Shown here piece by piece: positions 9,007 to 40,100 of a DNA stretch of 51,784 nucleotides (positions within the stretch are counted from its first letter, which is position 1; the number at the start of each line of letters is the position of its first letter). Origin of the DNA: Nemertoderma westbladi (Eukaryota; Animalia; Xenacoelomorpha); NCBI GenBank assembly GCA_032718475.1, contig JAUCBJ010008217.1, positions 1 to 51,784 of the forward strand, written 5' to 3'. Made by a program: the position numbers and the translations under genes. The notes under the pieces are model-generated. The model was not told the origin of the DNA and did no database searches. It saw only the letters and a program-made list of their open reading frames with translations.

Positions 9007-9029
9007 GATTTATTATTCTAGAATTCATT

Positions 9030-9490: not shown

Positions 9491-9782
9491 AACTCATACA
9501 AAATTGTTTAATATACATTGATGTTGATGTAACCTTAGTAAAATTTATTAGTATAGTTGAGATTAGACAAACTGTTTAAACTAAAAAAAACTAAAGATAA
9601 TATTTGTAATAGTATAATTAATACTGAATGTTGTAGAACGTTACTACAAAAAATACACTTTTAATCAATATACTGTATAACAGTATATAATTTAATCAAT
9701 GTACTGTATAACCAAATGTTAAAACAATATATATTATACAGAGATAGTTTCACCCTTCTTTTCAGTGTTGCCCCATCTCTCT

Positions 9783-9986
9783 CTACATTAGTGATTGAAC
9801 GCACTGTTTGTATAGATGAATACCGAAATTTCCATCGTCCTGAAGTGGATCAATGTTATGTAGTTGTATGGGTTGAAGTCCATGTTCGAACTCAGCCACA
9901 ATAATATCCCCCTCCTCTTCATTGTAACGTACTTCAAAGTTATCATATAATTCCTGTATATTGTCATTATCCAGGTGGGAGTTATT
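9783..9986 (-). CDS. Probable C-terminal exon of the IS3EU transposase
   Basis: IDPLQDDGNFGIHLY resembles the DPL....N.GI.LY tail I recall for this family. Preceded on the minus strand by a poly-C run plus AG. Donor site not resolved. Confidence 0.5.
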   Translation of the reverse strand, partial: NNSHLDNDNIQELYDNFEVRYNEEEGDIIVAEFEHGLQPIQLHNIDPLQDDGNFGIHLYKQCVQSLM

Positions 9987-10199
9987 GCTGGGGGGGGGGG
10001 GGGGGGGGGGGGTGTTTACCACTTTAGCCAAATTGTATATAATAGCCCAAAAATAGTTCAAGTTATAAAATGTGGCACTTTATATAATTACAATAGGAAT
10101 TCAAGATTCAAATTCAGGTAATCAAATTCAAAAATAAAACTGAAACCTGTGCTATTGACGTTAAAATAATGTGCAACTGTAACCTGTACAACATTTAGA

Positions 10200-11162: not shown

Positions 11163-11231
11163 TTCAGTGTTACAAGTAAAGTACAGATTAAGATACTGGA
11201 TTCAGTAAAATACAAATAAACAGAAAATGGG

Positions 11232-11565
11232 ACATCTCGCAGTGAGAATGGTATCTCGCTGCGAGAATGGCATCTCGCTGCGAGAATGGCATCTCGCTGC
11301 GAGAATGACATCTCGCTGCGAGAATGACATCTCGCTGCGAGAATGACATCTCGCTGCGAGTATGACATCTCGCTGCGAGAATGACATCTCGCTGCGAGAA
11401 TGACATCTCGCTGCGAGAATGACATCTCGCTGCGAGAATGACATCTCGCTGCGAGAATGACATCTCGCAGCAAGATTCTCGCAGCGAGAACACATTCTCG
11501 GTGCGAGAAGTCAATCTCGCTGCGAGAATGTATTCTCGCAACGAGATTCTCGCAGCGAGAATGGC
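11232..11565 (-). repeat. Right subterminal array of IS3EU: inverted 19-bp unit
   Basis: CATCTCGCTGCGAGAATGA repeats, the reverse complement of the left array, more degenerate toward the TIR. Confidence 0.93.
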
Positions 11566-15936: not shown

Positions 15937-16175
15937 TCAAGGAACCACATTAATTCGTATATCAACATAAATTAAATCATCTTGATTGTCACCGGTTTCA
16001 TCCGCACCCAATTCGACCAGTTTAGCAGCAGATCTTCCAGTCCAATTATCGCAGGGCACGTCAGCGACAATCAAACTTTCTCTAAGAGAGTCAAACTGTA
16101 TGCGCCCCCTAGTGTCCGGTGTAAGAAGTGAAATAACATTAACCAGGTCGGGAGTACCACCGCCAGATATAAATC
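15937..16175 (-). CDS. Spectraplakin-like terminal coding exon t (phase 1 to stop): degenerate EF-hand 2 and short tail
   Basis: ttgtttacag|GATTTA...CCTTGA; phase matches exon s; LTPDTRGRIQFDSLRESL sits where EF-hand 2 is expected. Confidence 0.72.
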
Positions 16176-19100
16176 CTGTAAACAAAAACATCAAGTTACG
16201 AATGGATATTCCCGGCCGAACGTTCAGCGCTGGTGGCTGAATCAAGGTTGTTTTCATACCCTCAATAATGTCCGATTTAACTTCATAAATAACATTGATT
16301 GATATTTTTTCAATTTTTTATAAAATTAGAAATAATTTGGAGACCGACTCTTCGGGACTAACCTGTTATTCCCACAATTCATCGGGACTATCCTGAATTC
16401 CCACGACTCTTCGGGATTAACCTGTATTCCCACGACTCTTCGGTACTAACCTGTATTCCCACGACTCTTCGGGACTAACCTGTATTCCCACGTGACTCTT
16501 TGGTACTAACAGGTATTCCCACGACTCATCGGGACTAACCTGTATTCCACGACTCTTCGGTACTAACCTGTATTCCATGACTCTTCGGTACTAACCTGTA
16601 TTCCCACGTGACTCTTTGGTACTAACAGGTATTCCCACGACTCATCGGGACTAACCTGTATTCCACGACTCTTCGGTACTAACCTGTATTCCACGACTCT
16701 TCGGTACTAACCTGTATTCCCACGACTCTTCGGTACTAACCTGTATTCCCACGTGACTCTTTGGTACTAACAGGTATTCCCACGACTCATCGGGACTAAC
16801 CTGTATTCCACGACTCTTCGGTACTAACGACTAACCTGTATTCCCACGCGACTCTTCGGTACTAACCTGTATTCCCACGCGACTCTTCGGTACTAACAGG
16901 TATTCCCACGACTCTTCGGTACTAACCTGTATTCCCCACGACTCTTCGGGACTAACCTATATTCCCACGACTAATCGGGACTAACCTGTATTCCCACAAC
17001 TCTTCGGGACTAACCTGTATTCCCACGCGACCCTTTGGTACTAACCTGTATTCCCACGCAACTTTCGGTACTAACAGGTATTCCCACGACTCATCGGGAC
17101 TAACCTGTATTCCCACGACTCTTCGGGACTAACCTGTATTCCCATGCGACTCTTCGGTACTAACCTGTATTCCCACGTGACTCTTTGGTACTAACCTGTA
17201 TTCCCATGACTCTTCGGGACTATCCTGTGTTCCCACGACTCTTCAGGACTAAACTGTATTCCCACGCGACTCTTTGGTACTAACATGTATTCCCACGACT
17301 ATTCAGGACTAACATGTATTCCCACGACTCATCGGGACTAACCTGTATTCCCACGCGACTCTTCGGTACTAACAGGTATTCCTACGACTCATCGGGACTA
17401 ACCTGTATTCCCATGCGACCCTTCGGTACTAACCTGTATTCCCACGCAACTTTCGGTACTAACAGGTATTCCCACGACTCATCGGGACTAACCTGTATTC
17501 CACGACTCTTCGGGATTAACCTGTATTCCCACGACTCTTCGGGACTAACCTGTATTCCCATGCGACTCTTCGGTACTAACCTGTATTCCCACGTGACTCT
17601 TTGGTACTAACCTGTATTCCCATGACTCTTCGGGACTATCCTGTATTTCCACGACTCTTCAGGACTAACCTGTATTCCCACGCGACTCTTTGGTACTAAC
17701 ATGTATTCCCACGACTATTCGGGACTAACATGTATTCCCACGACTCATCGGGACTAACCTGTATTCCCACGCGACTCTTCGGTACTAACAGGTATTCCCA
17801 CGACTCATCGGGACTAACCTGTATTCCACGACTCTTCGGTACTAACCTGTATTCCACGACTCTTCGGTACTAACCTGTATTCCCACGACTCTTCGGTACT
17901 AACCTGTATTCCCACGTGACTCTTTGGTACTAACAGGTATTCCCACGACTCATCGGGACTAACCTGTATTCCACGACTCTTCGGGACTAACATGTATTCC
18001 CACGACTCATCGGGACTAACCTGTATTCCCACGCGACTCTTCGGTACTAACAGGTATTCCCACGACTCATCGGGACTATCCTGTATTCCACGACTCTTCG
18101 GTACTAACATGTATTCCCACAACTCATCGGGACTAACCTGTATTCCCACGACTCTTCGGGACTAACCTGTATTCCCATGCGACTCTTCAGGACTAACCTG
18201 TATTCCACGACTCTTCGGTACTAACATGTATTCCCACGACTCATCGGGACTAACCTGTATTCCCACGCGACTCTTCGGTACTAACAGGTATTCCCATGAC
18301 TCATCGGGACTAACCTGTATTCCACAACTCTTCGGTACTAACCTGTATTCCACGACTCTTCGGTACTAACCTGTATTCCCACGACTCTTCGGTACTAACC
18401 TGTATTCCCACGACTCTTCGGTACTAACCTGTATTCCCACGAGACTCTTTGGTACTAACAGGTATTCCCACGACTCATCGGGACTAACCTGTATTCCACG
18501 ACTCTTCGGTACTAACGACTAACCTGTATTCCCACGCGACTCTTCGGTACTAACCTGTATTCCCACGCGACTCTTCGGTACTAACAGGTATTCCCACGAC
18601 TCTTCGGTACTAACCTGTATTCCCCACGACTCTTCGGGACTAACCTATATTCCCACGACTAATCGGGACTAACCTGTATTCCCACAACTCTTCGGGACTA
18701 ACCTGTATTCCCACGCGACCCTTTGGTACTAACCTGTATTCCCACGCAACTTTCGGTACTAACAGGTATTCCCACGACTCATCGGGACTAACCTGTATTC
18801 CCACGACTCTTCGGGACTAACCTGTATTCCCATGCGACTCTTCGGTACTAACCTGTATTCCCACGTGACTCTTTGGTACTAACCTGTATTCCCATGACTC
18901 TTCGGGACTATCCTGTGTTCCCACGACTCTTCAGGACTAAACTGTATTCCCACGCGACTCTTTGGTACTAACATGTATTCCCACGACTATTCAGGACTAA
19001 CATGTATTCCCACGACTCATCGGGACTAACCTGTATTCCCACGCGACTCTTCGGTACTAACAGGTATTCCTACGACTCATCGGGACTAACCTGTATTCCC

Positions 19101-22100
19101 ATGCGACCCTTCGGTACTAACCTGTATTCCCACGCAACTTTCGGTACTAACAGGTATTCCCACGACTCATCGGGACTAACCTGTATTCCCACGCGACTCT
19201 TCGGTACTAACAGGTATTCCCACGACTCATCGGGACTAACCTGTATTCCACGACTCTTCGGTACTAACCTGTATTCCACGACTCATCGGGACTAACCTGT
19301 ATTCCCACGCGACTCTTCGGTACTAACCTGTATTCCCACGACTATTCGGGACTAACATGTATTCCCACGACTCATCGGGACTAACCTGTATTCCACGACT
19401 CTTCGGTACTAACATGTATTCCCACGACTCATCGGGACTAACCTGTATTCCCACGCGACTCTTCGGTACTAACAGGTATTCCCACGACTCATCGGGACTA
19501 ACCTGTATTCCACGACTCTTCGGTACTAACATGTATTCCCACGACTCATCAGGACTAACCTGTATTCCCACGCGACTCTTATGTACTAACAGGTATTCCC
19601 ACGACTCATCGGGACTAACCTGTATTCCACGACTCTTCGGTACTAACCTGTATTCCCACGACTCTTCGGTACTAACCTGTATTCCACGACTCTTCGGTAC
19701 TAACCTGTATTCCCACGACTCTTTGGTACTAACCTGTATTCCCACGACTCTTCGGTACTAACCTGTATTCCCACTACTCTTTGTTACTAACCTGTATTCC
19801 CACGACTCTTCGGGACTAACCTGTTTTCCCATGCGACTCTTCGGTACTAACCTGTATTCCCACGACTCTTCGGTACTAACCTGTATTCCTACGACTCTTC
19901 GGTACTAACCTGTATTCCCATGACTCTTCGGGACTATCCTGTGTTCCCATGCGACTCTTCGGTACTAACCTGTATTCCCACGACTCTTCGGTACTAACCT
20001 GTATTCCCAAGACTCTTCGGTACTAACCTGTATTCCCATGGCTCTTCACTCTTCGGGACTAACCTGTATTCCCACAACTCTTCCTCTTCGGGACTAACCT
20101 GTATTCCCACGACTCTTCGGTACTAACCTGTATTCCCACTACTCTTTGGTACTAACCTGTATTCCCACGACTCTTCGGGAGTAACCTGTTATCCCGTGCG
20201 ACTCTTCGGGACTAACCTGTTTTCCCATACGACTCTTCTGTACTAACAGGTATTCCCACGACTCATCAGGACTAACCTGTATTCCCACGACTCTTCGGGA
20301 CTAACCTGTTTTCCCATGCGACTCTTCTGTACTAACAGGTATTCCCACGACTCATCAGGACTAACCTGTATTCCCACGACTCTTAGGTACTTACCTGTAT
20401 TCCCATGACTCTTCGGTACTAACCTGTATTCCCACTACTCTTTGGTACTAACCTGTTTTCCCACGCGACTCTTCGGGACTAACCTGTATTCCCAAACATT
20501 TGCTGCAGTTCCAATATACCAATTTTCCCATCCTTGTTATATATTGTATCCCATTGATCGATTAGCTCACCAATCGTATGCCCGTTGCTATGTATGTGGC
20601 TAAGGAATCTCGTCTCCCAATCGCTCAATGTAAATTTGTTGTCAATAAAGTTAGTATTGAGTCTGTAAAGGGCGTTGTTGAGAAGAGACCTCCTCTGTTG
20701 ATACTTCAACCACAGTTCCTCCCAGAGATTGCACATAAAGACAACACATGGGTTGCTCAAATAGCACTGGACGAACGATTTAGAATTCCTATAATTGTTG
20801 AAATATATACAAATTATTACTATACAATAAAAATAAAACTATTTCAACATTATAGGCCTACTTCTACTACTGTACCATCTCGCTTTAAGTAACAGTTGCA
20901 AAGTTCTTTATTCAATGCAATTTGATTTAATTTATCCTAGCATTTTACCGGTAGGTATTAAAAAACAAAACGCTATTAAACCATTTATAAACTACTCCAA
21001 TGGGATCCAGCCATATAAACTTGCACCAATCACGAATCTGTTTTTGTTGATTAAGTGTAAGGTGCGTAATGCATTCCAAGCATTTGTAAACTATATAGGC
21101 ATCATATAATCTAAAATCATTCAGATTACAGTATATGAAACGCTTTTAAACATGACAAAATTACATCCTAAAACTCTTCCTTATGTCATGTCACATATTT
21201 TCCTTTACTAATTGCTGGTTATTTAACCATAAGTACCGGTAGTTAACTACTAATAATTGTATCGGCTATACTATACTGTTATGGCATACTTTTAGTATTA
21301 AAACCCCATTTTAGTATTAACTCATATTTTTTTTTAAGGAAAATAATTATGTACTCTTATTTTTATATGTGTCATGAATTCTATTGCATTATGTTCTCAT
21401 TTTAAAATGAGTTGAGTACACCATTAATTCGGAAAATCTTGCAATTTTGTAGTCATATTTTAGCCAGAATTTGCGCATCATCTTTGAATAATTGTCACCC
21501 ATCTTCTAGCCAATCGCGAATTTGCGCCTCATCTTTGAAAATATGTCACACATCGTTTAGCCAATCATTGATAAGGCCATTTCCGAATAAGGCCTTATCA
21601 ATATAAGGCAATATTTTCCGAATTAATGGTGTAGGCCCTACTCATTTTAAAATGAGAACATAATTCATTGAATTAGTGACTCTTATAAAAATATGAGTAC
21701 AAAATTGCAAGATTTTCCGAATTAATGATGTACTCATTTTAAAATTTATTTACTAACGCGCTATCATCGCTGAATATATCACTATCCTCCGATGACGTGG
21801 TTGGAAAGACGTTGCCTTGGTTACAACCCGTTAACCTATCAATGTAATGTTCCCGTTGTTTCATAGAACTTTCCATATTACGATGTTCTTCAACTATTAC
21901 ATACATCTGTAATTGTGAAACATTTTTATCTTTATTTCTAATATACAGTAATTATTATTAATGGGATAATATTTTTGGGCTAGTAATCAGCAGCTAGATG
22001 TACCATTATAGATCACTTCACATTACATTTTGCCCCTTCAACGATTTTCTACTCTACATTATGTGCCATCTATCCATTGTTTATGGAATAGAATACAATT

Positions 22101-25100
22101 AAACAAATATCCATAATAACTAGAAAGGCCATGATATCGATGGGTTGGTATACTTCATTCGTGTATAGATTTGCCAGTCTACTCATATCTAAAACTCGTA
22201 CGTATTCACCAATTACTTAATTACCTCATCCAAAGAATCAGGTAATATTAATTCGTTGTCAATACTGTCGCATGCACCTTGAAGCCATTCGATCATATCT
22301 TCTAGTAATTGTGCATCTTCGTTAAGAGTTTGTAACCTCTTGTGTAACCATGTAGCATAGTTGTCACTGCGATGGTGTAGATGATTGTATGAGGCTGAAA
22401 GATTAAGTAAGAATGAGTGAGTGAGTGAGTGAGTGAGTGAGTGAGTGAGTGAGTGAGTGAGTGAGTGAGTGAGTGAGTGAGTGAGTGAGTGAGTGAGTGA
22501 GTGAGTGAGTGAGTGAGTGAGTGAGTGAGTGAGTGAGTGAGTGAGTGAGTGAGTGAGTGAGTGAGTGAGTGAGTGAGTGAGTGAGTGAGTGAGTGAGTGA
22601 GTGAGTGAGTGAGTGAGTGAGTGAGTGAGTGAGTGAGTGAGTGAGTGAGTGAGTGAGTGAGTGAGTGAGTGAGTGAGTGAGTGAGTGAGTGAGTGAGTGA
22701 GTGAGTGAGTGAGTGAGTGAGTGAGTGAGTGAGTGAGTGAGTGAGTGAGTGAGTGAGTGAGTGAGTGAGTGAGTGAGTGAGTGAGTGAGTGAGTGAGTGA
22801 GTGAGTGAGTGAGTGAGTGAGTGAGTGAGTGAGTGAGTGAGTGAGTGAGTGAGTGAGTGAGTGAGTGAGTGAGTGAGTGAGTGAGTGAGTGAGTGAGTGA
22901 GTGAGTGAGTGAGTGAGTGAGTGAGTGAGTGAGTGAGTGAGTGAGTGAGTGAGTGAGTGAGTGAGTGAGTGAGTGAGTGAGTGAGTGAGTGAGTGAGTGA
23001 GTGAGTGAGTGAGTGAGTGAGTGAGTGAGTGAGTGAGTGAGTGAGTGAGTGAGTGAGTGAGTGAGTGAGTGAGTGAGTGAGTGAGTGAGTGAGTGAGTGA
23101 GTGAGTGAGTGAGTGAGTGAGTGAGTGAGTGAGTGAGTGAGTGAGTGAGTGAGTGAGTGAGTGAGTGAGTGAGTGAGTGAGTGAGTGAGTGAGTGAGTGA
23201 GTGAGTGAGTGAGTGAGTGAGTGAGTGAGTGAGTGAGTGAGTGAGTGAGTGAGTGAGTGAGTGAGTGAGTGAGTGAGTGAGTGAGTGAGTGAGTGAGTGA
23301 GTGAGTGAGTGAGTGAGTGAGTGAGTGAGTGAGTGAGTGAGTGAGTGAGTGAGTGAGTGAGTGAGTGAGTGAGTGAGTGAGTGAGTGAGTGAGTGAGTGA
23401 GTGAGTGAGTGAGTGAGTGAGTGAGTGAGTGAGTGAGTGAGTGAGTGAGTGAGTGAGTGAGTGAGTGAGTGAGTGAGTGAGTGAGTGAGTGAGTGAGTGA
23501 GTGAGTGAGTGAGTGAGTGAGTGAGTGAGTGAGTGAGTGAGTGAGTGAGTGAGTGAGTGAGTGAGTGAGTGAGTGAGTGAGTGAGTGAGTGAGTGAGTGA
23601 GTGAGTGAGTGAGTGAGTGAGTGAGTGAGTGAGTGAGTGAGTGAGTGAGTGAGTGAGTGAGTGAGTGAGTGAGTGAGTGAGTGAGTGAGTGAGTGAGTGA
23701 GTGAGTGAGTGAGTGAGTGAGTGAGTGAGTGAGTGAGTGAGTGAGTGAGTGAGTGAGTGAGTGAGTGAGTGAGTGAGTGAGTGAGTGAGTGAGTGAGTGA
23801 GTGAGTGAGTGAGTGAGTGAGTGAGTGAGTGAGTGAGTGAGTGAGTGAGTGAGTGAGTGAGTGAGTGAGTGAGTGAGTGAGTGAGTGAGTGAGTGAGTGA
23901 GTGAGTGAGTGAGTGAGTGAGTGAGTGAGTGAGTGAGTGAGTGAGTGAGTGAGTGAGTGAGTGAGTGAGTGAGTGAGTGAGTGAGTGAGTGAGTGTGAGT
24001 GAGTGAGTGAGTGAGTGAGTGAGTGAGTGAGTGAGTGAGTGAGTGAGTGAGTGAGTGAGTGAGTGAGTGAGTGAGTGAGTGAGACAATAAACACATATGT
24101 TTTTGACTGTTCTTGCTACCGGTATCTGTTCACACCTGTAATCATATTGAGACGATTTAGAATATTGTCTTTAGCTTTTGGATGGCACGTTTCCATCAAT
24201 TCTTCTCCATGTTGGACTAGCTCTTTTACGTCGATATAAATATTCCCTAAAGTTTCCTCAAACTCTTTATGTTCACTAAGTCTGTCTTGGACTTCATCCT
24301 CGTCTTCTAGACTGTCTTCTCCACTCGAAGAGAAATCCCTCTCGAAATCCGATAACTTATCAACCAAATCTTTCCAATGAGACTCAAATTTAATTGCGTT
24401 CGCCATCGACCTAATTGAAGAAATATTCCGATAATATAATAATTATTTACTTACTAATTACAGTATAACTATGTCATATTTAATAAAGATTTTCAAATTT
24501 GGAACTTGGTTGTCCAAAAAGTACTTGTTTCAAATAATCCAGTTAAATCCGCCACTTATCTATAAATAGAACATCACACAGTACTTTGACCTTGAGTATC
24601 TCGGCTCCACTTACTCTTTGAGGGTTTGCCTAACAGCTGTGCACTTCTGTTCGGAGGCATCCAGTCTATCTACTAACATCCCCAATTCCTTATTGCTATT
24701 CTCATCGTAGGGCCTGGTTGTAACTCCACTCAACGACTTCTGCCGAAGTGCTATTTCGTATTGCATTATCTATAAAAATAATAAGGAGTGTAAGTGTGTT
24801 GTAGTGGGGATTACACAATGTCACTTATACCATTTAATTACAAATTTTTGGACAAATTAGCTTTTATTTCACTCGCAGTTTTCCCCATGTGAAGAATACC
24901 AGGTTTTCATGGACAACCTAGATTACAGAGGATTAGAATATAACCTAAACAATAAATGAATTACTAAATGTACCTATTTTGAGAACAGCACATGGGCGCT
25001 ATTATCCCCCAACTCAGAATAAATTTAAATGTGCCTTAGGTAATTTATAGAATACAAAATATATATTTGTTTATAAAATTATAATTAAATTAAGAGAGGA

Positions 25101-28100
25101 AAAAACGTTGAAAACCTGAGAACCATCACCCTGGGCTGGGCAATGGGTATGGGTGGATATAAGAATATATCAGTCATCAATCGGCTATTTACTAATTACA
25201 GATAATATATACAGTAGATGTTTCAATCTCACATATATATATAGCACATTCCGGACACATGGCAAACTGTTTCTGAACTGGGTCCCTACCCAATTTGTAG
25301 CCCAGCATCCGGTGGCGGGGAACATTATACAACCTACCTTGTAGGCATTTGTGAGTTTACTGACAGTGTCAATATCACCATCAAGTTGACTAGAATCCGT
25401 TAGAATATTCTCCACATCAATCAGCCAATCAGCGATCGCGGTTGGAGAACTGAAAGAAATCAGCTGCCCCCTCTCCAATTCAGTGTGCCTATAAATAGCA
25501 GTGCAGGATATGTACTGCAGTAATGAGTCAATTAAACCCTTGATACACTGCAAACATTTTGACGTTAATTTAACGTTAATTTACGTTAATATTCTACCAT
25601 TCCAACGTTATTTTTTAACTTGTCCTTACGTTAAATTAACGTATTATTGGCCGGGGTTACTACGTTAACAATATACATATATTGTTATACAAACAGAAGG
25701 CATACAACTGTATCACTTCATATATGGGTTAAATATATTGCAATTATATATGTACAGTCCATTTTGAAAAAAAGTTATCTATAGCGCTCTAGATAATTAT
25801 TAAGAGCGCTCTAGTTATTATCTAGAGCGCTATAGATAATTTTTTTTCAAAATGTACATTTAGGGTTTCGTATAATTACGGACGTTAGATATTCGGTACA
25901 CTACCAGACTACTACCGGTTGGCTAATATAATATCTCACCATTGCTTAGATAATCCATCAACGCTCTCCCATGCAAGTTTAATGTTACGCAAGCAAGTTA
26001 CTATAAAATCGTCGTTGTCATTGGGACAATGTTCTAGAATGCTATCTCCCATTGCGTATAATTCGTCCAATCTGAGCTGTACAATAGTAATATATAAAAC
26101 CACTGATTAGTGGGACCTCTAAGTCAACGTCAAGTTATCCCAGACCTGCTGTGCCTAGTTACTATAGATGCTGTGCCTAGTTACTATAGATGCTGTGCCT
26201 AGTTACTATAGATGCTATGCCTAGTTACTATAGATGCTGTGCCTAGTTACTATAGATGCTATGCCTAGTTACTATAGATGCTGTGCCTAGTTACTATAGA
26301 TGCTGTGCCTAGTTACTATAGATGCTGTGCCTAGTTACTATAGATGCTATGCCTAGTTACTATAGATGCTGTGCCTAGTTACTATAGATGCTGTGCCTAG
26401 TTACTATAGATGCTGTGCCTAGTTACTATAGATGCTATGCCTAGTTACTATAGATGCTGTGCCTAGTTACTATAGATGCTGTGCCTAGTTACTATAGATG
26501 CTGTGCCTAGTTACTATAGATGCTGTGCCTAGTTACTATAGATGCTGTGCCTAGTTACTATAGATGCTGTGCCTAGTTACTATAGATGCTATGCCTAGTT
26601 ACTATAGATGCTGTGCCTAGTTACTATAGATGCTATGCCTAGTTACTATAGATGCTGTGCCTAGTTACTATAGATGCTGTGCCTAGTTACTATAGATGCT
26701 GTGCCTAGTTGCTATAGATGCTTTGCCTAGTTACTATAGATGCTATGCCTAGTTACTATAGATGCTGTGCCTAGTTACTATAGATGCTGTGCCTAGTTAC
26801 TATAGATGCTGTGCCTAGTTACTATAGATGCTGTGCCTAGTTACTATAGATGCTATGCCTAGTTACTATAGATGCTGTGCCTAGTTACTATAGATGCTGT
26901 GCCTAGTTACTATAGATGCTATGCCTAGTTACTATAGATGCTGTGCCTAGTTACTATAGATGCTATGCCTAGTTACTATAGATGCTGTGCCTAGTTACTA
27001 TAGATGCTGTGCCTAGTTACTATAGATGCTGTGCCTAGTTACTATAGATGCTGTGCCTAGTTACTATAGATGCTGTGCCTAGTTACTATAGATGCTGTGC
27101 CTAGTTACTATAGATGCTGTGCCTAGTTACTATAGATGCTGTGCCTAGTTACTATAGATGCTATATATATATAGGTACAATCAGCTATTGGGAATCGCCG
27201 ATCAATGATCCCAACCCCCCAGCTATTAGAGTTATTATTCGCCCCTACATACACTCCCAATGCATCCATCGATATACCTACTTACCTGTTTGGTTTGGAA
27301 TGCCTCAAGGAATTTACGGTAACTGGACAACAGACTACGGATTATATGTTCCTTATCTTGATCTCCTTGTTTCTGCTGAATTTCCTTTATATTTACCAGC
27401 TCCTCCCTGAATGTGATTGATGCTTCTTCCAACCACCCAATCAACTCATCGTATTTAATCAGAAACTGAAACAATATAGGATTTGTAACTGCTTATATTA
27501 TTATTATTGTAGTTCATGTAGTTGATATGTTTTATGTTTATGTAGTTTATAAGGACATATAAAAATATTCATAAAAAATACACAAAAAATAAATAGTTTT
27601 GAGATAAAAAAAATATAAGTTTAACTCACCGATTCACTTTTATTTTGATTCTCTAATAAGTTTTTCTCACGATTTTTCAAATTTGATATTAATTTCATAA
27701 AATCACATTGTATTTTCTGCAGTTGGTTCTGAATTCCGACCATTGTAGAACATTGTTGCGATTTACTATACGACTTTATTGTAATCTGTTTATCTAAATG
27801 TTGAACTCCTTCCAGCTCCACTGTTACGTCTCTTAGAATCTCCTGAAATACAATAATTAATAGGCCTATTAATTATTACTGTAAGAACGGATATATCAGA
27901 ATAATTAATATATTAATTTTTAATATATTATCTATATATATTTTTTTTGTACACAAAAAAGTTATTTTATCTAAAGGTGACTCACCGATAATCATCAAAT
28001 TATGCCAATAATAATTTATTAATATATTATAATATTAATTATAAATATTATATGTTAAATAAATGAAAATGGGTTGGTGGCGATTAAATACGGGGTAACA

Positions 28101-31100
28101 ATAAGGTGCCCTGAATCGAGTGGCGGGGTGTAAGTAAGCGCGGGAAGCCGATTTTTAAATCGGATGTGATTGGCTGCTAAAGATTTGACGTCATTACAAT
28201 GTGCCTTTTCAAATTTTTTTCAAAGAGATTTTCGATCGATTCAAATTCATATTAAATCTCAATCATTTCACACATGGCTTATATTAATTCAAAGCGGGGA
28301 GTCTTGCGGGTCTTTTGACACTACAATTAATTAAATTTACGACGAGGAAGATTGTTAAAATGATATTCACAATTGCAAATTCGGCAGATTGCCTGGACCA
28401 GTATGTAAGTAAGCACTCAGCCTATTACAGTACAGCAGCATTGCAGCTTACTTCATTAAGTAGGGGTTACCGGTGCACAATTACTGTATAATAGTCAAGT
28501 AGCCTACCAGCCTACTGCAGTACTGACAATTATTACTCTATTATAGTAACGGCTGAGGCTGACCGCTGTAACAGGCTGAGATAACTCCCCACCAAATATG
28601 ACTCCCCAGTCTTCTCAGCCTAGGCTGAGACACTCCCCAGTTTTCTCCCTATATTTATTAATTATCGGAAAGGAACAGGTTACAGTGGCGGGCTTTTCTA
28701 AACCAAAACAATACACGATAACTCAATAACATAGGTTATAGATTTATTTTTGCAATATACGAAAATAACACAGCTTGTACGGATATGTATTATAACTCAA
28801 TTAGGGGAGTCATCTCAGCCTAAGGGGAGTGTTCTCAGCCTAGGCTGAGATAACTGGGGAGTGTTATCAGCCTAGGCTGAGACGACTGAGGAGTGTTCTC
28901 AGCCTAGGCTGAGAGGAGTCATTTCAAGAAGAAGTTATTTCAGCCTTGCACACAGGTATTAGAAGTATAGTGTTATTTTAAATCTAATCTGTAGGCCTTA
29001 CCGTTGTGATAGCTTGGAATGCAGTATTGCTGCTGGAAATACTGGAAATACATTTTATCAATGTCATCACCATGAATTTAATTAATATTGTAGTGTCAAA
29101 AGACCCGCAAGACTCCCCGCGTTCAATTAATATAAGCCATGTGTGAAATGATTGAGATTTAATATGTATTTGAATCGATCGAAAATCTCTATCCATACCC
29201 TCTATCTAAACCAAGATAAGAAATTATCAGATCACTTTGTAATGACGTCAAATATGTAGCAGCCAATCACAGCCGATTTTCAAAATTGGTTCCCTGGCTT
29301 ACTTAATCCCGCAATATCGACCGTTTCCTGGTGTTTTTACAAAAATCACACCCCGCCACTCGATTCAGGGCACCTTGTTACCCCTTATTCGATTGTTTCT
29401 AGCCCAACTCGATTCAAGGCACCTTGTTACCCCTTATCCGATTGTTTCTAGCCCGACTCGATTCAGGGCACCTTGTTACCCCTTATTCGATTGTTTCTAG
29501 CCCAACTCGATTCAGGGCACCTTGTTACCCCTTATTCGATTGTTTCTAGCCCAACTCGATTCAAGGCACCTTGTTACCCCTTATCCGATTGTTTCTAGCC
29601 CGACTCGATTCAGGGCACCTTGTTACCCCTTATTCGATTGTTTCTAGCCCAACTCGATTCAAGGCACCTTGTTACCCCTTATCCGATTGTTTCTAGCCCA
29701 ACTCGATTCAGGGCACCTTGTTACCCCTTATTCGATTGTTTCTAGCCCAACTCGATTCAGGGCACCTTGTTACCCCTTATTCGATTGTTTCTAGCCCAAC
29801 AATTTTTTCGCGTACCAACCCTGTTACGAACCTTAGTTTCTCTAATCTGTTGTGTTATGGTTTCTAAGTGAATAGAAACTCGTTCAAAATCTTCAAACTG
29901 AAATTCCATGTCTTCCAATCGATCTCTGATCTTGTTGACAATTCCCTCAAAAACAGAGGGATCTTTCCCTGACCAATCAGATGTCTCTAACTTCAGTGTT
30001 ATTGAGACCTTGTAAGAAACCGTTTGCCAATTTCTGAAAAATAGTAGTTGGTAAATTTACCGCAAAATCGAAATAAAAGTTTATTGAAGGTTCTAATCGA
30101 ATGGAGCGTAACTCACTACTTAGGACTAGACTACTCTAGTTCATGTAATGTATAGAGGTGCTGTAAATTTATTAGACTTTATCCACTCTTCCAGGTCTAC
30201 CTTTTACCTGGGCCGCTGGCGGAATGGTTAGAACGCCAGACTTCCAACCCGGAGGTCACCAGTTCGATCCCACCTGGATGTCTCATTCACCCAAAACACC
30301 AATAACAGATTATTAAGTAAGTGTCTTTCGTGAAATCTCACTCTTTGTTGATAAACTTATTTTATACAAATATTCGCCTTCTCTTTGTAGAAGTAATGGT
30401 TTTTCCGATACGTTTTGTTATCGAATGACATTCATTGTGTAAATGACAATAAATCAATAAATAACCTCTTCAGTTTGTCGAGATCATCCTCAATATCAAG
30501 TCGTCCAGAAATATTGCATTGTTCGAGGAAAAACTTCGCCTTTGTCATCATATCACTGAGATTCAATATTTCGTTGGAAATTATATCGTCATTCTAATAA
30601 AATAATACAAAAAAATACGGTTTACTTTTGTACAACTTGGTACGAAGGAAGCTTAGGAGATTAGAACTGTGCGTGCTAGGGTACCAACTGTGCGTGCTAG
30701 GGTACCAACTGTGCGTGCTAGGGTACCAACTGTGCGTGCTAGGGTACCAACTGTGCGTGCTAGGGTACCAACTGTGCGTGCTAGGGTACCAACTGTGCGT
30801 GCTAGGGTACCAACTGTGCGTGCTAGGGTACCAACTGTGCGTGCTAGGGTACCTACTGTGCGTGCTAGGGTACCAACTGTGCGTGCTAGGGTACCAACTG
30901 TGCGTGCTAGGGTACCAACTGTGCGTACTGGGGTACCAACTGTGCGTGCTAGGGTACCAACTGTGCGTGCTAGGGTACCAACTGTGCGTGCTAGGGTACC
31001 AACTGTGCGTGCTAGGGTACCAACTGTGCGTTCTAGGGTACCAACTGTGCATACTGGGGTACCAACTGTGTGTGCGTGCTAGGGTACCAACTGTGCGTGC

Positions 31101-34100
31101 TAGGGTACCAACTGTGCGTGCTAGGGTACCAACTGTGCGTGATAGGGTACCAACTGTAACTGTGCGTGCTAGGGTTCCAACTGTGCGTGCTAGGGTACCA
31201 ACTGTAACTGTGCGTGCTAGGATTCCAACTGTGCGTGCTGGGGTACCAACTGTGCGTGCTAGGGTACCAACTGTGCGTGCTAGGGTACCAACTGTGCATA
31301 CTGGGGTACCAACTGTGTGTGCGTGCTAGGGTACCAACTGTGCGTGCTAGGGTACCAACTGTGCGTGCTAGGGTACCAACTGTGCATACTGGGGTACCAA
31401 CTGTGCGTGCTAGGGTACCAACTGTGCGTGCTAGGGTACCAACTGTGCGTGCTAGGGTACCAACTGTAACTGTGCGTGCTAGGATTCCAACTGTGCGTGC
31501 TAGGGTACCAACTGTGCATACTGGGGTACCAACTGTGTGTGCGTGCTAGGGTACCAACTGTGCGTGCTAGGGTACCAACTGTGCGTGCTAGGGTACCAAC
31601 TGTGCATACTGGGGTACCAACTGTGCGTGCTAGGGTACCAACTGTGCGTGCTAGGGTACCAACTGTGCGTGCTAGGGTACCAACTGTGCGTGCTAGGGTA
31701 CCAACTGTGCGTGCTATGGTACCAACTGTGCGTGCTAAGGTACCAACTGTGCGTGCTAGGGTACCAACTGTGCGTGCTAGGGTACCAACTGTGCGTGCTA
31801 GGGTACCAACTGTGCGTGATAGGGTACCAACTATGCGTGCTAGGGTACCAACTGTGCGTGCTAGGGTACCAACTGTGCGTGCTAGGGTACCAACTGTGCG
31901 TGCTAGGGTACCAACTGTGCGTGCTAGGGTACCAACTGTGCGTGCTAGGGTACCAACTGTGCGTGCTAGGGTACCAACTGTGCGTGCTAGGGTACCAACT
32001 GTGCGTGCTAGGGTACCAACTGTGCGTGCTAGGGTACCAACTGTGCGTGCTAGTGTACCAACTGTGCGTGCTAGGGTACCAACTGTGCGTGCTAGGGTAC
32101 CAACTGTGCGTGCTAGGGTACCAACTGTGCATATTTTGATTGCGGCTAGAATAAACCCCCTGCGCACCTGAGTTGGAGTTATCGAGTCGTCGACATTGAA
32201 TTCAATATCAACGATTTCATCTTTCCTCTTGTCGATTCGATTTTTTAAATCTCGCAATATTTCTACAGCGGTTCCCAATTTAGATATCTTTTCGTCAACT
32301 TCCTGGAATGTAAACGCGGTATAATAATAATAATAATATAAATATAATGATAATAAGTGTATATCGTTACAATAAGCTCAATTACTCTCGAGAGCCTTTA
32401 GCTTGTCAGCTAGTAATTTATTGTTTCACTAAACCTGATTGTTAACATTTATTTAATAAACTTAACTTATTAATTTTATCTGGACGGTCAGGGCCCTAAA
32501 CCGATTAGGTTCTCTGTTCGCAGAACACCGAACACTATTCCGGCCACGGAACTAGTCCAGCAGAATGCCTTTATAGAATCCTGGGATTTGGGGGACGAGA
32601 GGATCTCAGCAACTAAGCGAAAACGAACAATAGGATGTTCCTAGACCCCCCCCCCCCCCCAAAATTTATCCAGAAGACTTTTCGCCATACATAATGTGTT
32701 AAAAAAGTCTACGGTTCTCCGGCTAGGGCCAATTTGAGTCAAAAAGTCCGCTTCCCTAGCAACCACGTTGCTATGGAGATAAGTCCAGAACCGCTAATGC
32801 TACGGACTTGGGACCGGCGCCAAACTGTAGGCAGCATATGGGTTTACCTTCACATCCTTTTTTTTGGAGCGATCAGATCACGATCTTGACCATGATCAGC
32901 AAAGATCAGTTTTGATCAGCAATCGGACACTCAAGGCTTGCTCCAATCGAAAAACTTAACATTACAAAAAGATTCAGCGACCCCACATTAGTCATGATTC
33001 CCGTTAAAAGATTTTAAAAAAAGTGAATTCTTCCTGGTTAAAACCCAAGATCATGATCGCGCAAAGATCGGACTTTGTAAAATCGTAACTAAGCATTTTG
33101 ATTAAGCATTAAAAAAAAAATTGGCTCGATCGGACAACCAGTTCTCGAGATCTGATACCTGATCATTAAAGATCATATTTTTCGGTTTTTTCAAATTTTC
33201 TCGAAAACTTTGTTTGAGACCCCCGATTTTTTTTTTACGAATCGACTTCTATGATGAAGGGGCAACTTTTGAGCATTTCGAAATTTTCAAAAAGCGATTT
33301 GATCAGGCCGCGATCAGAAAAGATCGTGTTTTTGGTTTTATTTCAAAGACCAAGTCCTGGGAGTTCACCGTATGGAAAAACTTAACATCACAAAAAGATT
33401 CCTCACCCTCGAATTATGGGGGGTAGCCAAAATTTTGGCATAAAAAAGTTCAAGTCTAGTGGGTCAAAACTCAAGATCATGATCGTGAAAAGATCAGTAT
33501 ATTTAAAATCGAATCTAAGCATTTTTCTAATAAACATTCATTGTAAGAAATGTTCAATGGTCTATTTTGAGTTGATTAAAAAAAAAATTGGCTCGATCGG
33601 TCAACCGGTTCTCGAGATCAGCTTCCTGATCATAAAAGATCATGTTTTTCGGTTTTTCCCGATTTTCTCGAAAACTTTGTTTGAGACCCCCGATTTTTTT
33701 TTTACTAATCGACTTCTATTAAGAAGGGGCAACTTTTGGGTATTTCGAAATTTTCAAAAAGCGATTTGATCAGGCCATGATCAAGAAAGATCATGTTTTC
33801 GGTTTTATTTCGAAGACCAAGTCCTGTGAGTTCACCGTATGAAAAAACTTAACATTACAAAAAGATTCCTCACCCTCGAATTAGGGGGGGTAACCAAAAT
33901 TTGACCATAAAAAAGTTCAATTCTACGGGGTCAAAAGATCATGATCACAAAATGATCAGTTTTTTCGTAATTACTTCTGAGCATTTTGGGGCAAGTAGAT
34001 TAAAAAAAATTTCGACTCAATAGGCCTACCGGTACCGGAGATATGGTCGTCCAAAGACTGCTTCCGGTAATTCGAAAATATTTCGAAAACCCTTGATCGA

Positions 34101-37100
34101 ATTTTTTCCTTGAAAATATGTGAATGTACAGTTAGTGGACCCGCATCTAACAATATATCACAATCCATATTTCGGATGACAGGTACCGGTGAAATCAGAC
34201 TTTACCGAAAAAAATTCAAATTTTAGCTACTCATGTCTGACTATCTCGAAAACTATAATAGGTATGGAAATACTTTCACTGCAAGAAATGTTCGCCTATC
34301 CAATGCGCTTCTAACTCTGTGCTCGGATTTTGCATAGTTTCAAAACCTACAACTTAACCCCCCCAGCGGAGGGAACGGAGTGACCGGAGCGCCAGTACTA
34401 TCTTTCATTATTATGAAGTAATAAGGGCGGTGGGTGGGGTAGGTGGTGAACACTATTTATAGGGTGGAGGGAGGGTCTAGTATATTACATTAGGATATTT
34501 GATTTCTTTGCAATATAGTTTAGCTGCCTCAGTCTTATTTGTAATATGTTATACATTATACCAAATTATATCAAGTTTTAACATACTACATTGTCTACCT
34601 GTAGGAGAAATATACAATGTAGGGCTCATAATATATTTATAAATAGATTTAGTATATTTACATTGTATAACAGAGTTAATTGATACTATTACGGTATTAT
34701 ACTAAAGACGCCGCTTTGATATATCTGATCAAATGGCAATTTCTTGTATATTATCTATTTCACTATCTTGGGTATATCATTCAATTTCTAAAACTATAAT
34801 AATAAACATTTACTTTACTTCTTGTTTACTCGCATGGATATATTGATATAAAACACTTCAGTATAATATCTTATAGGGCCAAACACAGATTAATCGGAAT
34901 AATATGTTTAATTATTATTACAATGGGCACATTGAAGTAAGTAGTACATGAGTTTGATAAAATAATTATGAATCCGTATCTTATTCTACTTTGTCTATAT
35001 GGTTATGTTATATAATAATGTTACTTTATCACTTTGGTTTAAACCGATCTCCTTTACTATTACTTACTACTTATACTACTACTACTACTACTATTATTAC
35101 TACTGCTACTGACTACTACAGAGTTATATATTATAAGAGGATGGGGTTCGTGATTATTAGTTATTATACAAGTGCCCCTCGGCTATAGAGAGTCCACCCT
35201 CGGTTGCTTACTGGGTGCGTTATATGACGTCTATGAGAGGTCCGTTATGAACTGAATGTCAGGTGGAGTTTATATGTAAGTCGCGCTGTAGGCCTATTCA
35301 ATCTCATCTACTGTTGTACTGTTGTAAGGAAAATATAGCCGCTAATAAGATCGATTGCGATTAGAGGGGGGTTAACAAGTGAGAATGTCGTAGCAATTCG
35401 GGACTATAACAATAATGGATGGAAAGAAAGATCGATTGTGGGTTGTGGATCACAAACTCATTTAGTTTATCACAAAAATAATAAATAATTAAGGCGACAT
35501 TTAAAAAATGCGTGCTGATGGGAGTAAAGCCGACAACCGTTATAAGTTAAGGGAAAGGAACAGGTTATAGTGGTAGGCTATTATTAAAAAACAATTAATA
35601 AACGACAGTCAAAAGCGCAAGTTCCAGTTATATTTGACTTCATAATATTTATTTATATATATAAATATATATGTCATTATTTCTTTATATATATTATTTA
35701 TAAATATTTTACATTGGAGGTGTCTCATTGGTTCCCCCATGCTTGACACTACAACAAAGTCGCCTGCGCTTTGCAGGATATTGCTTTCGCCGTGAGGACC
35801 AACCAGTGCATAATCTTGTACGTTGGCAGTCTACTATGGAGTGAATAAGCATGGTGGACAGCCCATGACTTTCTTGAGACGCATATTAAAGGACACTGGC
35901 CTTGAAGATGCGGATGATCTAGTAAATGTCATGGGTGATAGGGAGTTGTGGCGGCGCAATTTTGTCGACAAGCCGGCACAGCATTCTGAAAAATGCAGCT
36001 GCAATGCAGCATGCCGATCCTAGTTGCAGTAGTAGTACTAGTAAACTTCATAATAATAGTTGTGGGTTGTCGGCTGTCGGTCGTCGGTTGTCAGCTAAGC
36101 TTTTACACCAGACATATATCAAATATGACTAACCTTGTGTAAATCATCCAATATTCCTTTTACTCTCAAACAACTGTGTAACATCGGCGAATCTTCAAAT
36201 CTTCCGCCACTCGCCCCCAAACCGTCTCTAATATGTTGGATAATGGTATTAAGTCGACCTTCCTTATCATCTATGTACTGTTTCATAGCCTAATATAAGT
36301 TGAAATAAAATAAAGACGTTACAATTTCACCGGCACAAATCCATAACAAACATCCCATAACAAATATCTTTACCAAATCGATTATATTGGATCCTCAGGA
36401 CTTACCTTATATCTCTTCGAACGATCATCTAATTGTTCAGCGGAGGTAACAGTTCCCCCAAGATCTCCGACCAATAGATGTCTAGTTTCGTATATCCAAA
36501 CTGATATCTCCGACATTTCTGTAAACTGTATCGATTTTTTATGAGTTTGAATTCCCTTTAACATTTCCGATAACGTTTGCTGAAGGTTTGACCACTTAAA
36601 ATTTACTAGCAACATCTGTTTGGTTAACTCAACTTCGTCCTCAATCAGGCAGCGACTGTAATAAATAAATCACAATGTTGTTTACTCATATCATTCCACT
36701 ATCCAAATAAATTTACACAAGTAACATTAAGAAGCTAAATAAGGTATTTATTAACGCTTAGTATTTTAAATTTGGAAATATCTATTATAAATATTTATTA
36801 AAGGTACTAACTCTATAAGTTTCTCTCCTCTCCTATTTAAGTCAATCAGTCGTTCACAACTTTCCTTTAGGACGCCCTCTATTTCCGCCAATTGCAATTC
36901 GTCTCCCCTTTGGCCAACTAACTCTGCCTGTTCACTCAAAACTGACAACCAATTATCAAACTCCTACAAATTAATCATAAACAAATAATAGCAATGTTGT
37001 TATCAGTATTAATTACTAAACAATACTTATTTTAACAAAGTAGCCTGTCCTATCATGTATCTTATTAATAATAATTATTAACATTAACATTAACATTAAC

Positions 37101-40100
37101 ATTATTTATTATCGCGGATCCGGATTCGGATTCTGTTTCGGAACCGGATCCGTTTTACTCTGACCCAAATAATAATGGTAATTATTTAATTAATTTTTAT
37201 TTTAAACACAACATTTTGTTTTAATACTTTGATATTTGACCAAATGATTTCAGTAAAGGATTTAGATTTTGTTAAATTTGCGTGGAGATTTTGGTTCAGG
37301 TTTTCAAGCCACGAAAAATTGTCTTTCAACTATTATGTTTTTGCACTAAAATTATAATAATAATAAAAATATTAAATAATAAAACAATGTTTTTCGGTTA
37401 CGGTACATTTGTTGTGTTTTGAGTTCGAGCGTTGATTTTAATTTTGGAATGTTCTAAGAAAGGTCAATGGTTTGATAATTTGTTAATTACATTATTAAAT
37501 AAAAATTTTGCCAAAGTAATTGGACACTCAATGAGTTGCGGTATGTTGGTCGTTATTCGGAGGTTTGATTCCCGTTTTGCGGCATGTTGGTCGTTATTCG
37601 GAGGTTTGATTCCCGTGCTGCGGCATGTTGGTCGTTATTCGGAGGTTTGATTCCCGTGCTGCGGCATGTTGGTCGTTATTCGGAGGTTTGATTCCCGTGC
37701 TGCGGCATGTTGGTCGTTATTCTGAGGTTTGATTCCCGTGCTGCGGTACGTTGGTCGTTATTCGGAGGTTTGATTCCCGTGCTGCGGCATGTTGGTCGTT
37801 ATTCGGAGGTTTGATTCCCGTGCTGCGGCATGTTGGTCGTTATTCGGAGGTTTGTTTCCCGTGCTGCGGCATGTTGGTCGTTATTCGGGGGTTTGATTCC
37901 CGTGCTGCGGCATGTTGGTCGTTATTCGGAGGTTTGATTCCCGTGCTGCGGCATGTTGGTCGTTATTCGGGGGTTTGATTCCCGTGCTGCGGCATGTTGG
38001 TCGTTATTCGGAGGTTTGATTCCCGTGCTGCGGCATGTTGGTCGTTATTCGGAGGTTTGTTTCCCGTGCTGCGGCATGTTGGTCGTTATTCGGGGGTTTG
38101 ATTCCCGTGCTGCGGCATGTTGGTCGTTATTCGGAGGTTTGATTCCCGTGCTGCGGCATGTTGGTCGTTATTCGGAGGTTTGTTTCCAGTGCTGCGGCCT
38201 GTTGGTCGTTATTCGGAGGTTTGATTCCCGTGCTGCGGCATGTTGGTCGTTATTCGGAGGTTTGTTTCCCGTGCTGCGGCATGTTGGTCGTTATTCGGAG
38301 GTTTGTTTCCCGTGCTGCGGCATGTTGGTCGTTATTCGGAGGTTTGATTCCCGTGCTGCGGCATGTTGGTCGTTATTCGGAGGTTTGTTTCCCGTGCTGC
38401 GGCATGTTGGTCGTTATTCGGGGGTTTGATTCCCGTGCTGCGGCATGTTGGTCGTTATTCGGAGGTTTGTTTCCCGTGTTGCGGCATGTTGGTCGTTATT
38501 CGGAGGTTTGATTCCCGTGCTGCGGCATGTTGGTCGTTATTTGGAGGTTTGATTTCCGTGCTGCGGCATGTTGGTCGTTATTCGGAGGTTTGATTCCCGT
38601 GCTGCGGCATGTTGGTCGTTATTCGGAGGTTTGTTTCCAGTGCTGCGGCATGTTGGTCGTTATTTGGAGGTTTGATTTCCGTGCTGCGGCATGTTGGTCG
38701 TTATTCGGAGGTTTGATTCCCGTTTTGCGGCATGTTGGTCGTTATTCGGAGGTTTGATTCCCGTGCTGCGGCATGTTGGTCGTTATTCGGAGGTTTGATT
38801 CCCGTGCTGCGGCATGTTGGTCGTTATTCGGAGATTTGTTTCCCGTGTTGCGGCATGTTGGTCATTATTCGGAGGTTTGATTCCCGTGCTGCGGCATGTT
38901 GGTTGTTATTCGGAGGTTTGATTCCAGTGCTGCGGCATGTTGGTCGTTATTCGGAGGTTTGTTTCCCGTGCTGCGGCATGTTGGTCGTTATTCGGGGGTT
39001 TGATTCCCGTGCTGCGGCATGTTGGTCGTTATTCGGAGGTTTGATTCCCGTGCTGCGGCATGTTGGTCGTTATTCGGAGGTTTGATTCCCGTTTTGCGGC
39101 ATGTTGGTCGTTATTCGGAGGTTTGATTCCCGTGCTGCGGCATGTTGGTCGTTATTCGGAGGTTTGATTCCCGTGCTGCGGCATGTTGGTCGTTATTCTG
39201 AGGTTTGATTCCCGTGCTGCGGTACGTTGGTCGTTATTCGGAGGTTTGATTCCCGTGCTGCGGCATGTTGGTTGTTATTCGGAGGTTTGATTCCAGTGCT
39301 GCGGCATGTTGGTCGTTATTCGGAGGTTTGTTTCCCGTGCTGCGGCATGTTGGTCGTTATTCGGGGGTTTGATTCCCGTGCTGCGGCATGTTGGTCGTTA
39401 TTCGGAGGTTTGATTCCCGTGCTGCGGCATGTTGGTCGTTATTCGGAGGTTTGATTCCCGTGCTGCGGCATGTTGGTCGTTATTCGGAGGTTTGTTTCCA
39501 GTGCTGCGGCCTGTTGGTCGTTATTCGGAGGTTTGATTCCCGTGCTGCGGCATGTTGGTCGTTATTTGGAGGTTTGTTTCCCGTGCTGCGGCATGTTGGT
39601 CGTTATTCGGGGGTTTGATTCCCGTGCTGCGGCATGTTGGTCGTTATTCGGAGGTTTGATTCCCGTGCTGCGGCATGTTGGTCGTTATTCGGAGATTTGT
39701 TTCCCGTGTTGCGGCATGTTGGTCATTATTCGGAGGTTTGATTCCCGTGCTGCGGCATGTTGGTCGTTATTCGTAGGTTTGTTTCCAGTGCTGCGGCCTG
39801 TTGGTCGTTATTCGGAGGTTTGATTCCCGTGCTGCGGCATGTTGGTCGTTATTCGGAGATTCGTTTCCCGTGTTGCGGCATGTTGGTCGTTATTCGGAGG
39901 TTTGATTCCCGTGCTGCGGCATGTTGGTCGTTATTTGGAGGTTTGATTTCCGTGCTGCGGCATGTTGGTCGTTATTCGGAGGTTTGTTTCCCGTGCTGCG
40001 GCATGTTGGTCGTTATTCGGAGGTTTGATTCCCGTGCTGCGGCATGTTGGTCGTTATTCGGAGGTTTGTTTCCAGTGCTGCGGCCTGTTGGTCGTTATTC

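What the first reader, a model, noticed from the sequence alone, without database searches (positions are those of the whole stretch)
16345..20494. A 4.1-kb satellite made of ~140 tandem copies of the gene's own exon|donor junction
Seen: on the coding (minus) strand exon s ends TGGGAATACAG|GTTAGT. The ~29-nt unit is this junction, so units start GTTAGT and most end ACAG in register with the real donor, giving a long chain of AG|GT sites. GTTAGT is also the donor of exons e, g and r, so it looks functional in this species. Reading past the first donor gives ACA GGT TAG, an immediate in-frame stop, so any downstream copy would truncate the protein before EF-hand 2. Inference: the spliceosome must pick the first of many identical donors, or the array acts as a length-dependent splicing/NMD dial or a recursive-splicing ladder. 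The units lack a polypyrimidine tract, which argues against use as acceptors. It also resembles the AG|GT tandem-duplication model of intron gain.
Basis: partly seen in the sequence, partly recalled or inferred. Interest (0 to 1): 0.8.

Follow-up and report, generated by a model that had tools for sequence, protein, structure and literature searches.

The report
Repeated splice donor in spectrin-like gene
In an invertebrate's spectrin-like gene, the end of one exon and its splice signal are copied about 140 times into the next intron, yet the one spliced transcript assembly seen uses the first copy, so this is likely a harmless example of a repeat type ("mirage") already known from lancelets and human genes.

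Summary
Observation confirmed: 140 in-register copies of the exon s|intron junction, 99 with AG|GT, 93 with the real donor's 9-mer, and a stop right behind the first donor. One public run whose contigs are spliced (X4) joins exon s to exon t at the first donor with no repeat letters; no other X4 contig lay on the first units. The gene is a 20-exon, 1270-codon spectrin-repeat/EF-hand frame whose introns are 63% tandem array. A junction-spanning array here is what random seeding gives. A mirror case in the same gene, 51 copies of exon a's acceptor, is spliced at the last copy. The best reading is a neutral 'mirage'/F7-type minisatellite, tolerated because the exon-adjacent copy is used. Recursive splicing lacks pyrimidine tracts; intron gain does not fit. 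A minor leak removed by NMD is not excluded. This scan noted many such arrays before, larger ones in this genome included. New member of a known kind; low interest.

The parts
20484..20788 (-). Exon s (305 nt): end of the last spectrin-like helix and an EF-hand-like loop; its last 11 bases are the exon part of the repeat unit
   Evidence: X4 contig covers 20483-20787 with 0 differences between two joints; Pfam EF-hand_5 E=0.085, below cut-off; Atlas EF-hand clusters at 0.91
20478..20486 (-). First and used donor, CAG|GTTAGT (intron starts at 20483); TAG stop at 20481-20479 if read through
   Evidence: Loose end of X4 contig at 20483 equals window 16145-16174; stop
16345..20494 (-). Minisatellite: 140 in-register copies of the 29-nt exon|donor junction, 55 distinct units among 139
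20389..20397 (-). Fourth copy with a perfect consensus donor CAG|GTAAGT, 89 nt downstream of the real one; no use seen
   Evidence: sequence; no X4 product seen, contig-level only
16691..19189 (-). Recent internal block duplication: 18379-19189 repeated at 16691-17501 (811 nt, 1 mismatch, offset 1688)
16176..16344 (-). Unique 169-nt 3' part of intron s-t with T-rich acceptor (AG at 16177-16176)
   Evidence: junction shown
15937..16175 (-). Exon t coding part: last 78 residues and stop; lost if any downstream donor were used
   Evidence: no family hit
47181..48970 (-). Mirror array in the same gene: 51 copies of a 35-nt unit holding exon a's acceptor plus 5 exon bases (50 of 51 keep AG); the last copy is used
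   Evidence: X4 contig enters the window at 47186 from an in-frame exon not found in the window
15937..47185 (-). Host gene: 20 modelled exons a-t, one open frame of 1270 codons, spectrin-repeat protein with a C-terminal EF-hand-like region; 5' part lies beyond the window
   Evidence: Pfam Spectrin E=1.2e-5 and 0.0038, both below cut-off; joints p-q, q-r, r-s, s-t seen in X4

Best explanation
The array is a 29-nt tandem repeat of the exon s donor junction that likely arose as a chance local duplication in a short intron and likely grew neutrally by slippage and unequal exchange, and the one spliced transcript assembly seen uses the first, exon-adjacent donor. Shown: the unit, its copies, the stop behind the first donor, first-donor splicing in run X4, and last-acceptor splicing at the mirror array. 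Inferred: (1) the ancestral intron was about 187 nt and a 29-nt duplication spanning its donor seeded the array; (2) growth came from the turnover that also filled six other introns of this gene; (3) the copies stay silent because only the exon-adjacent site is paired with a defined exon and, for donors, is also transcribed first, as in human F7; (4) rare use of later donors would give a protein 78 residues short and would mostly be cleared or tolerated. The array likely has no function of its own.
For: X4 contig 24 (2109 nt, depth 40.7) skips GT-AG introns at 20787/21757 and 21906/22225, leaves the genome at 20483 and goes straight on into exon t. Of 2 X4 records laid on 20440-22400 none covers 20440-20482, while DNA contigs do. 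Use of donor 2 would put the stop only 26 nt before the last junction, so by the recalled 50-55-nt rule it would escape NMD and should show if common. The mirror array is spliced at its last AG: both cases use the exon-adjacent copy. 17,282 of 27,436 modelled intron bases are array; 7 of 19 introns hold one over 400 nt. Random seeding predicts 0.78 junction-spanning arrays among 10 (2 seen, P=0.18), or 1.47 among 7 (1 seen). No sign of donor decay near the exon: 17 of the first 20 sites keep AG|GT against 11-16 of 20 further in. The commonest donor-side variants travel with one linked variant (28 of 33 CCT/CAT units carry T at +12), which points to an amplified lineage. An 811-nt block duplication shows ongoing turnover. 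In F7, only the most upstream of identical donors is used, and adding or removing monomers did not change this (PMC1557585).
Against: The RNA evidence is one run, listed 'DNA?' and read as RNA from its spliced joints; contigs drop rare forms and no isoform ratio can be had. In F7, downstream sites with a perfect consensus did compete (about 70-90% use), and copy 4 here is CAG|GTAAGT; its product would carry a stop 84 nt before the last junction and could be hidden by NMD. In IFI6 and CBS two extra donors are used (cited in PMC1557585). An unchecked note on this genome reports use of an inner copy in GALNS. The chance test rests on 7-10 arrays and a uniform-seeding model of my own.
Confidence: 0.84

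Rival explanations
1. Leaky competition: a minority of transcripts use nearby copies (2, 3 or the perfect copy 4), gain the immediate stop and are cleared by NMD or give a short protein; array length or variants would then tune gene output, by accident or under selection.
For: 92 extra identical donors and one better one; IFI6 and CBS use two extra donors, and perfect F7 pseudo-sites compete; stops for donors 3 and later lie 55 nt or more before the last junction; steady-state contigs cannot show degraded forms.
Against: No X4 contig holds the first units, and contig 24 runs unbroken through the junction; the donor 2 product should escape NMD (recalled rule) yet was not seen; monomer number did not change F7 splicing; arrays fill six other introns without any splice site.
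Confidence: 0.1
2. Recursive-splicing ladder: the AG|GT copies act as zero-length exons and the 4.3-kb intron is removed in steps.
For: 99 AG|GT sites; recursive splicing leaves no trace in mature mRNA (PMC8797253 passage), so the X4 contig does not exclude it; a position matrix from 19 acceptors separates poorly at the tail (best array AG -1.2, weakest real acceptor -4.1).
Against: Upstream 18 nt are purine-rich: pyrimidines 0.31 (max 0.39), at least 5 G, against 0.50-0.78 and 0-4 G at 20 acceptors; median matrix score -7.4 against +2.1. Mouse recursive sites have pyrimidine tracts and lie in introns over 51 kb. Longer array introns in this gene lack such units. A 29-nt step is below usual minimal intron size (recalled).
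Confidence: 0.02
3. Intron gain by AG|GT duplication: the array created the s-t intron.
For: The unit holds AG|GT, and mirages have been proposed as a route to new introns (PMC3087553 passages).
Against: The acceptor used lies 169 unique bases beyond the array and has its own T-rich tract; splicing to the last copy's AG would lead into the stop; with one copy the intron is 187 nt, like its 116-204-nt neighbours. Intron position in homologues was not tested.
Confidence: 0.02
4. The array's length is partly an assembly artefact (for example the 811-nt block doubled).
For: 811 nt with 1 mismatch at offset 1688; no spanning read seen.
Against: 55 distinct units among 139; DNA runs of two studies show high summed depth at the edge; X1's ratio of 32 fits the 28 simulated from the assembled array, though X1 may be the source sample and the ratio is not a copy number.
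Confidence: 0.02

Closest known systems
Amphioxus 'mirage' minisatellites (Adh3, troponin C, globins BflGb6 and BflGb9, PGBD5); PMC3087553 and PMC3902484, passages read
   Same: [quoted passage not shown]
   Different: 140 copies against 3-6 in BflGb6; an invertebrate not identified here; a donor array and an acceptor array in one gene; length instability between alleles or cells not tested here.
Human F7 intron 7 37-bp VNTR (Borensztajn et al. 2006, PMC1557585; abstract, introduction and most results read, parts 1-3 of 6)
   Same: First monomer spans the exon-intron boundary, so identical donors follow the real one; only the most upstream is used.
   Different: F7 has 5-9 monomers with 4 exon bases; here 140 with 11 exon bases and one perfect-consensus copy. 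Activation of the next copy when the first is mutated was shown for F7, not here.
Human IFI6 (6-16), CBS intron 13, LMNB2 and PDGF junction minisatellites (seen only as cited in PMC1557585)
   Same: 10-25 repeated donors behind the real one.
   Different: IFI6 and CBS use two extra donors; none was seen here at contig level, and any would stop translation at once.
Recursive splice sites (PMC8797253, passages read)
   Same: AG|GT motif inside an intron.
   Different: No pyrimidine tract, 4.3-kb intron, 29-nt spacing, exon-derived upstream bases.

Membership tests
Mirage / F7-type junction minisatellite | Tandem repeat whose unit spans a real exon-intron boundary of the host gene | tested here: met
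   Unit = 11 exon + 18 intron bases; boundary shown by spliced contig
Mirage / F7-type junction minisatellite | Many but not all copies keep the splice signal | tested here: met
   99 of 140 AG|GT, 132 of 140 GT
Mirage / F7-type junction minisatellite | Regular mRNA made from the authentic, exon-adjacent site | tested here: met
   X4 contig joins 20484 to 16175; one run, contigs only
Mirage / F7-type junction minisatellite | Length polymorphism or instability between alleles | tested here: inconclusive
   Internal 811-nt duplication; array start present in a second sample; no spanning contig; assembly B1 gave no match
Mirage / F7-type junction minisatellite | Next copy is activated when the first donor is lost | not testable with these tools
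   Needs a minigene or a mutant allele
Recursive splice sites | Pyrimidine tract before AG|GT | tested here: not met
   0.31 pyrimidine (max 0.39) against 0.50-0.78 at real acceptors
Recursive splice sites | Junction intermediates and saw-tooth nascent coverage | not testable with these tools
   Only contigs were served
Intron gain by AG|GT tandem duplication | Both splice sites of the intron derive from the duplicated AG|GT | tested here: not met
   Acceptor lies in unique sequence 169 nt past the array
Regulated unproductive splicing (AS-NMD) | A stop-bearing isoform is made and rises on NMD inhibition | tested here: inconclusive
   Stop is in place; isoform not seen in X4 contigs; no NMD-inhibited data
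Spectrin superfamily with C-terminal EF-hand pair (host protein) | Spectrin repeats followed by two EF-hands | tested here: inconclusive
   Spectrin and EF-hand hits below Pfam cut-offs; Atlas 0.91 to EF-hand clusters for exon s; nothing for exon t

The most novel reading that the evidence does not exclude
The array is a splice-site rheostat: the perfect fourth donor and its neighbours divert a real share of transcripts into a stop-bearing form that NMD removes, so allele length and unit variants set the output of this cytoskeletal gene; and in this animal splice junctions seed such arrays more often than chance, across many genes.
Probability: 0.07. Interest if true: 0.6.

Novelty: new member of a known kind. 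Interest (0 to 1): 0.15.

Why it matters
As it stands it is ordinary: another, fairly large mirage. Its use is as a natural test of splice-site choice. One gene carries 140 donor copies spliced at the first and 51 acceptor copies spliced at the last. A pure first-come rule explains the donor but not the acceptor, whereas exon definition explains both; NMD of upstream-acceptor products could also hide them, since that unit carries an in-frame stop. If the rheostat reading held, a minisatellite would set gene dosage through competing donors, which the F7 experiments did not find.

Tried and rejected
No whole genome is held for this window. No RNA holder was listed by the look-up of sequencing runs (6 runs); X4 was read as RNA only from its spliced joints. 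The same-species assembly B1 matched 21730-22400 but gave no true match for exon s, exon t, the 29-nt array or the 35-nt array: no information on allele length. The other 13 genomes with matches had only 25-70-nt chance-level hits. Homologue searches were empty or uninformative: exon s, 0 of 25 candidates; solved structures, 1 row at E=2.3, chance; exon t, 3 hits among 1.84 billion proteins, to unrelated repeat-rich or enzyme proteins; Atlas blank for exon t. X4 does not cover exons b and c, so the c donor (46316 or 46322, both in frame) is unsettled. Summed depth as a copy number was rejected: X2 and X3, one sample, give ratios of 7.6 and 95. Reading exon s as a last exon ending at GGT TAG, with the array in the 3' UTR, was rejected because X4 splices on to exon t. 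Selection against pseudo-donors was rejected. Paper searches for acceptor-type arrays and for AGGT intron gain gave nothing used; PMC10078293 passages did not treat junction-spanning units. No supplements were read.
Full report
Observation. TRF finds the array at 16345-20494, period 29, 140.0 copies. On the minus strand exon s ends in the 11 bases that open the array, and the donor register recurs 140 times, the real donor included: 93 of 140 read CAG|GTTAGT, 99 keep AG|GT, 132 keep GT, 21 are CCT|GTTAGT, 12 CAT|GTTAGT. A looser first parse gave 145 sites, 5 of them off-register artefacts that I dropped. The fourth copy is a perfect CAG|GTAAGT. Reading past the first donor gives GGT TAG, so every later donor would add a stop, 26, 55, 84, 113 nt and so on before the last junction. 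No copy of the unit lies elsewhere in the window.

Is it real DNA? Three DNA-type runs from two studies show summed contig depth of 837, 242 and 488 in the bin holding the first units, against 26, 32 and 5 in the flank. An X2 contig with two flank differences from the window still runs into the first units, so a second sample shares the array start. X1's ratio (32) fits the 28 simulated from the assembled array, but X1 may be the source sample, and X2 and X3 disagree twelve-fold, so this is no copy count. No read spans the array.

Host gene. Twenty exons on the minus strand (47185 to 15937), all with AG and GT ends, give one frame of 1270 codons with a single final stop. Spectrin hits are weak (E=1.2e-5 and 0.0038, below cut-off) and exon s has a weak EF-hand hit backed by Atlas clusters at 0.91. 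Exon t has no family hit; a second, degenerate EF-hand there is my by-eye resemblance to spectraplakin ends, recalled and untested. The nearest genome is labelled invertebrate; I did not name the species. GTTAGT is the donor of 4 of 19 introns.

Which donor is used. No run was listed as RNA, but X4 held 0.26 of the words, near the exon share, and its contig 24 (2109 nt, depth 40.7) skips introns q-r and r-s at GT-AG ends, comes in from exon p and leaves the genome at 20483. The loose letters equal window 16145-16174, the start of exon t. So the first donor is joined to exon t with no repeat letters. Only 2 X4 records were laid on the stretch and none covers 20440-20482. A donor 2 product would keep its stop 26 nt from the last junction and, by the recalled 50-55-nt rule (not known to hold in this animal), would escape NMD; it was not seen.

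Mirror case. The 35-nt array at 47181-48970 holds exon a's acceptor and five exon bases 51 times (50 with AG). An X4 contig (168 nt, depth 7.7) enters at 47186 from an in-frame upstream exon that is not in the window: the last copy is used. In both arrays the exon-adjacent copy wins. Exon definition explains both; first-come explains only the donor; for the acceptor, NMD could also hide other products, as that unit has an in-frame stop.

Chance. About 49% of the window is tandem array, and 17,282 of 27,436 modelled intron bases. With uniform seeding, 0.78 of 10 arrays should span a junction; 2 do (P=0.18). Within host introns collapsed to one unit, 1.47 of 7 are expected and 1 is seen. With one copy the s-t intron is 187 nt, like its 116-204-nt neighbours. 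These are small numbers and my own null model, but they give no excess to explain in this window.

Evolution of the array. 55 of 139 units are distinct; an 811-nt block recurs at 1688 nt with one mismatch. The frequent CCT and CAT ends travel with T at +12 in 28 of 33 units, which suggests one amplified lineage. AG|GT is kept in 17 of the first 20 sites and 11-16 of 20 further in, so nothing suggests that copies near the exon were purged. CCT|GTTAGT still matches the consensus at 6 of 9, as well as or better than 11 of the 19 real donors.

Rivals. Recursive splicing leaves no mark in mRNA (PMC8797253), so X4 does not exclude it, but the in-register AGs have 0.31 pyrimidines upstream against 0.50-0.78 at real acceptors; my position matrix agrees at the median (-7.4 against +2.1) and overlaps at the tail. 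Intron gain fails because the acceptor is unique sequence 169 nt past the array. A leak cleared by NMD stays open: in F7, perfect downstream sites did compete, and IFI6 and CBS use two extra donors.

What is known. Borensztajn et al. 2006 (PMC1557585; parts 1-3 of 6 read) describe the F7 intron 7 VNTR, where only the most upstream donor is used and monomer number did not matter, and cite IFI6, CBS, LMNB2 and PDGF. Lancelet 'mirages' cover both 5' and 3' borders and leave splicing regular (PMC3087553 and PMC3902484, passages). I reached the mirage papers through this scan's earlier notes, which list 61 findings with these words in at least 29 genomes and several arrays of 400-2,100 donor copies in this same genome; those notes are unchecked leads.

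Verdict. New member of a known kind; interest 0.15.

Noticed in passing
window 47181-48970: 51 tandem copies of exon a's acceptor junction; spliced contig uses the last copy. One exact X1 contig has depth 1441 against 28 in the flank (ratio 51). A related unit with 2-4 differences reaches depth 25,000 in X1 and 1249 in X4, so a far larger family lies elsewhere; whether it came from this acceptor or supplied it is open.
   Followed up: partly
window 22414-24083: 418 copies of TGAG (TCAC on the coding strand, resembling the recalled branch-point motif yUnAy) fill intron p-q and end 20 nt before the acceptor; X4 splices p to q across it.
   Followed up: partly
window 26147-27162, 29358-29800, 30665-32130, 37537-41270, 41682-46304: Five further unrelated intronic arrays (22, 49, 21, 41, 40 nt units); several leave only 52-193 non-array bases in their intron.
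   Followed up: partly
window 5348-7408 (-): Intronless, G+C-rich 687-codon GMP-synthase-like frame with GATase and GMP_synt_C hits, between 24-29-nt arrays. Looks divergent.
   Followed up: no
window 12244-14892 (+): 883-codon endonuclease plus reverse transcriptase frame of a LINE-type element.
   Followed up: no
window 8795-11560: Element bounded by inverted 19-nt arrays (8795-9006, 11231-11530) holding an integrase-core frame (rva_4, 10203-11201, minus) and a HECT-like fragment (9050-9487, plus).
   Followed up: no
window 16345-20494: The CCT|GT variant is the reverse complement of CAG|G at the same place, so it may be a 2-nt micro-inversion that was then amplified.
   Followed up: no
window 21230-21760: High-copy repeat with inverted parts in intron r-s; summed depth up to 74,000 in X2.
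   Followed up: no
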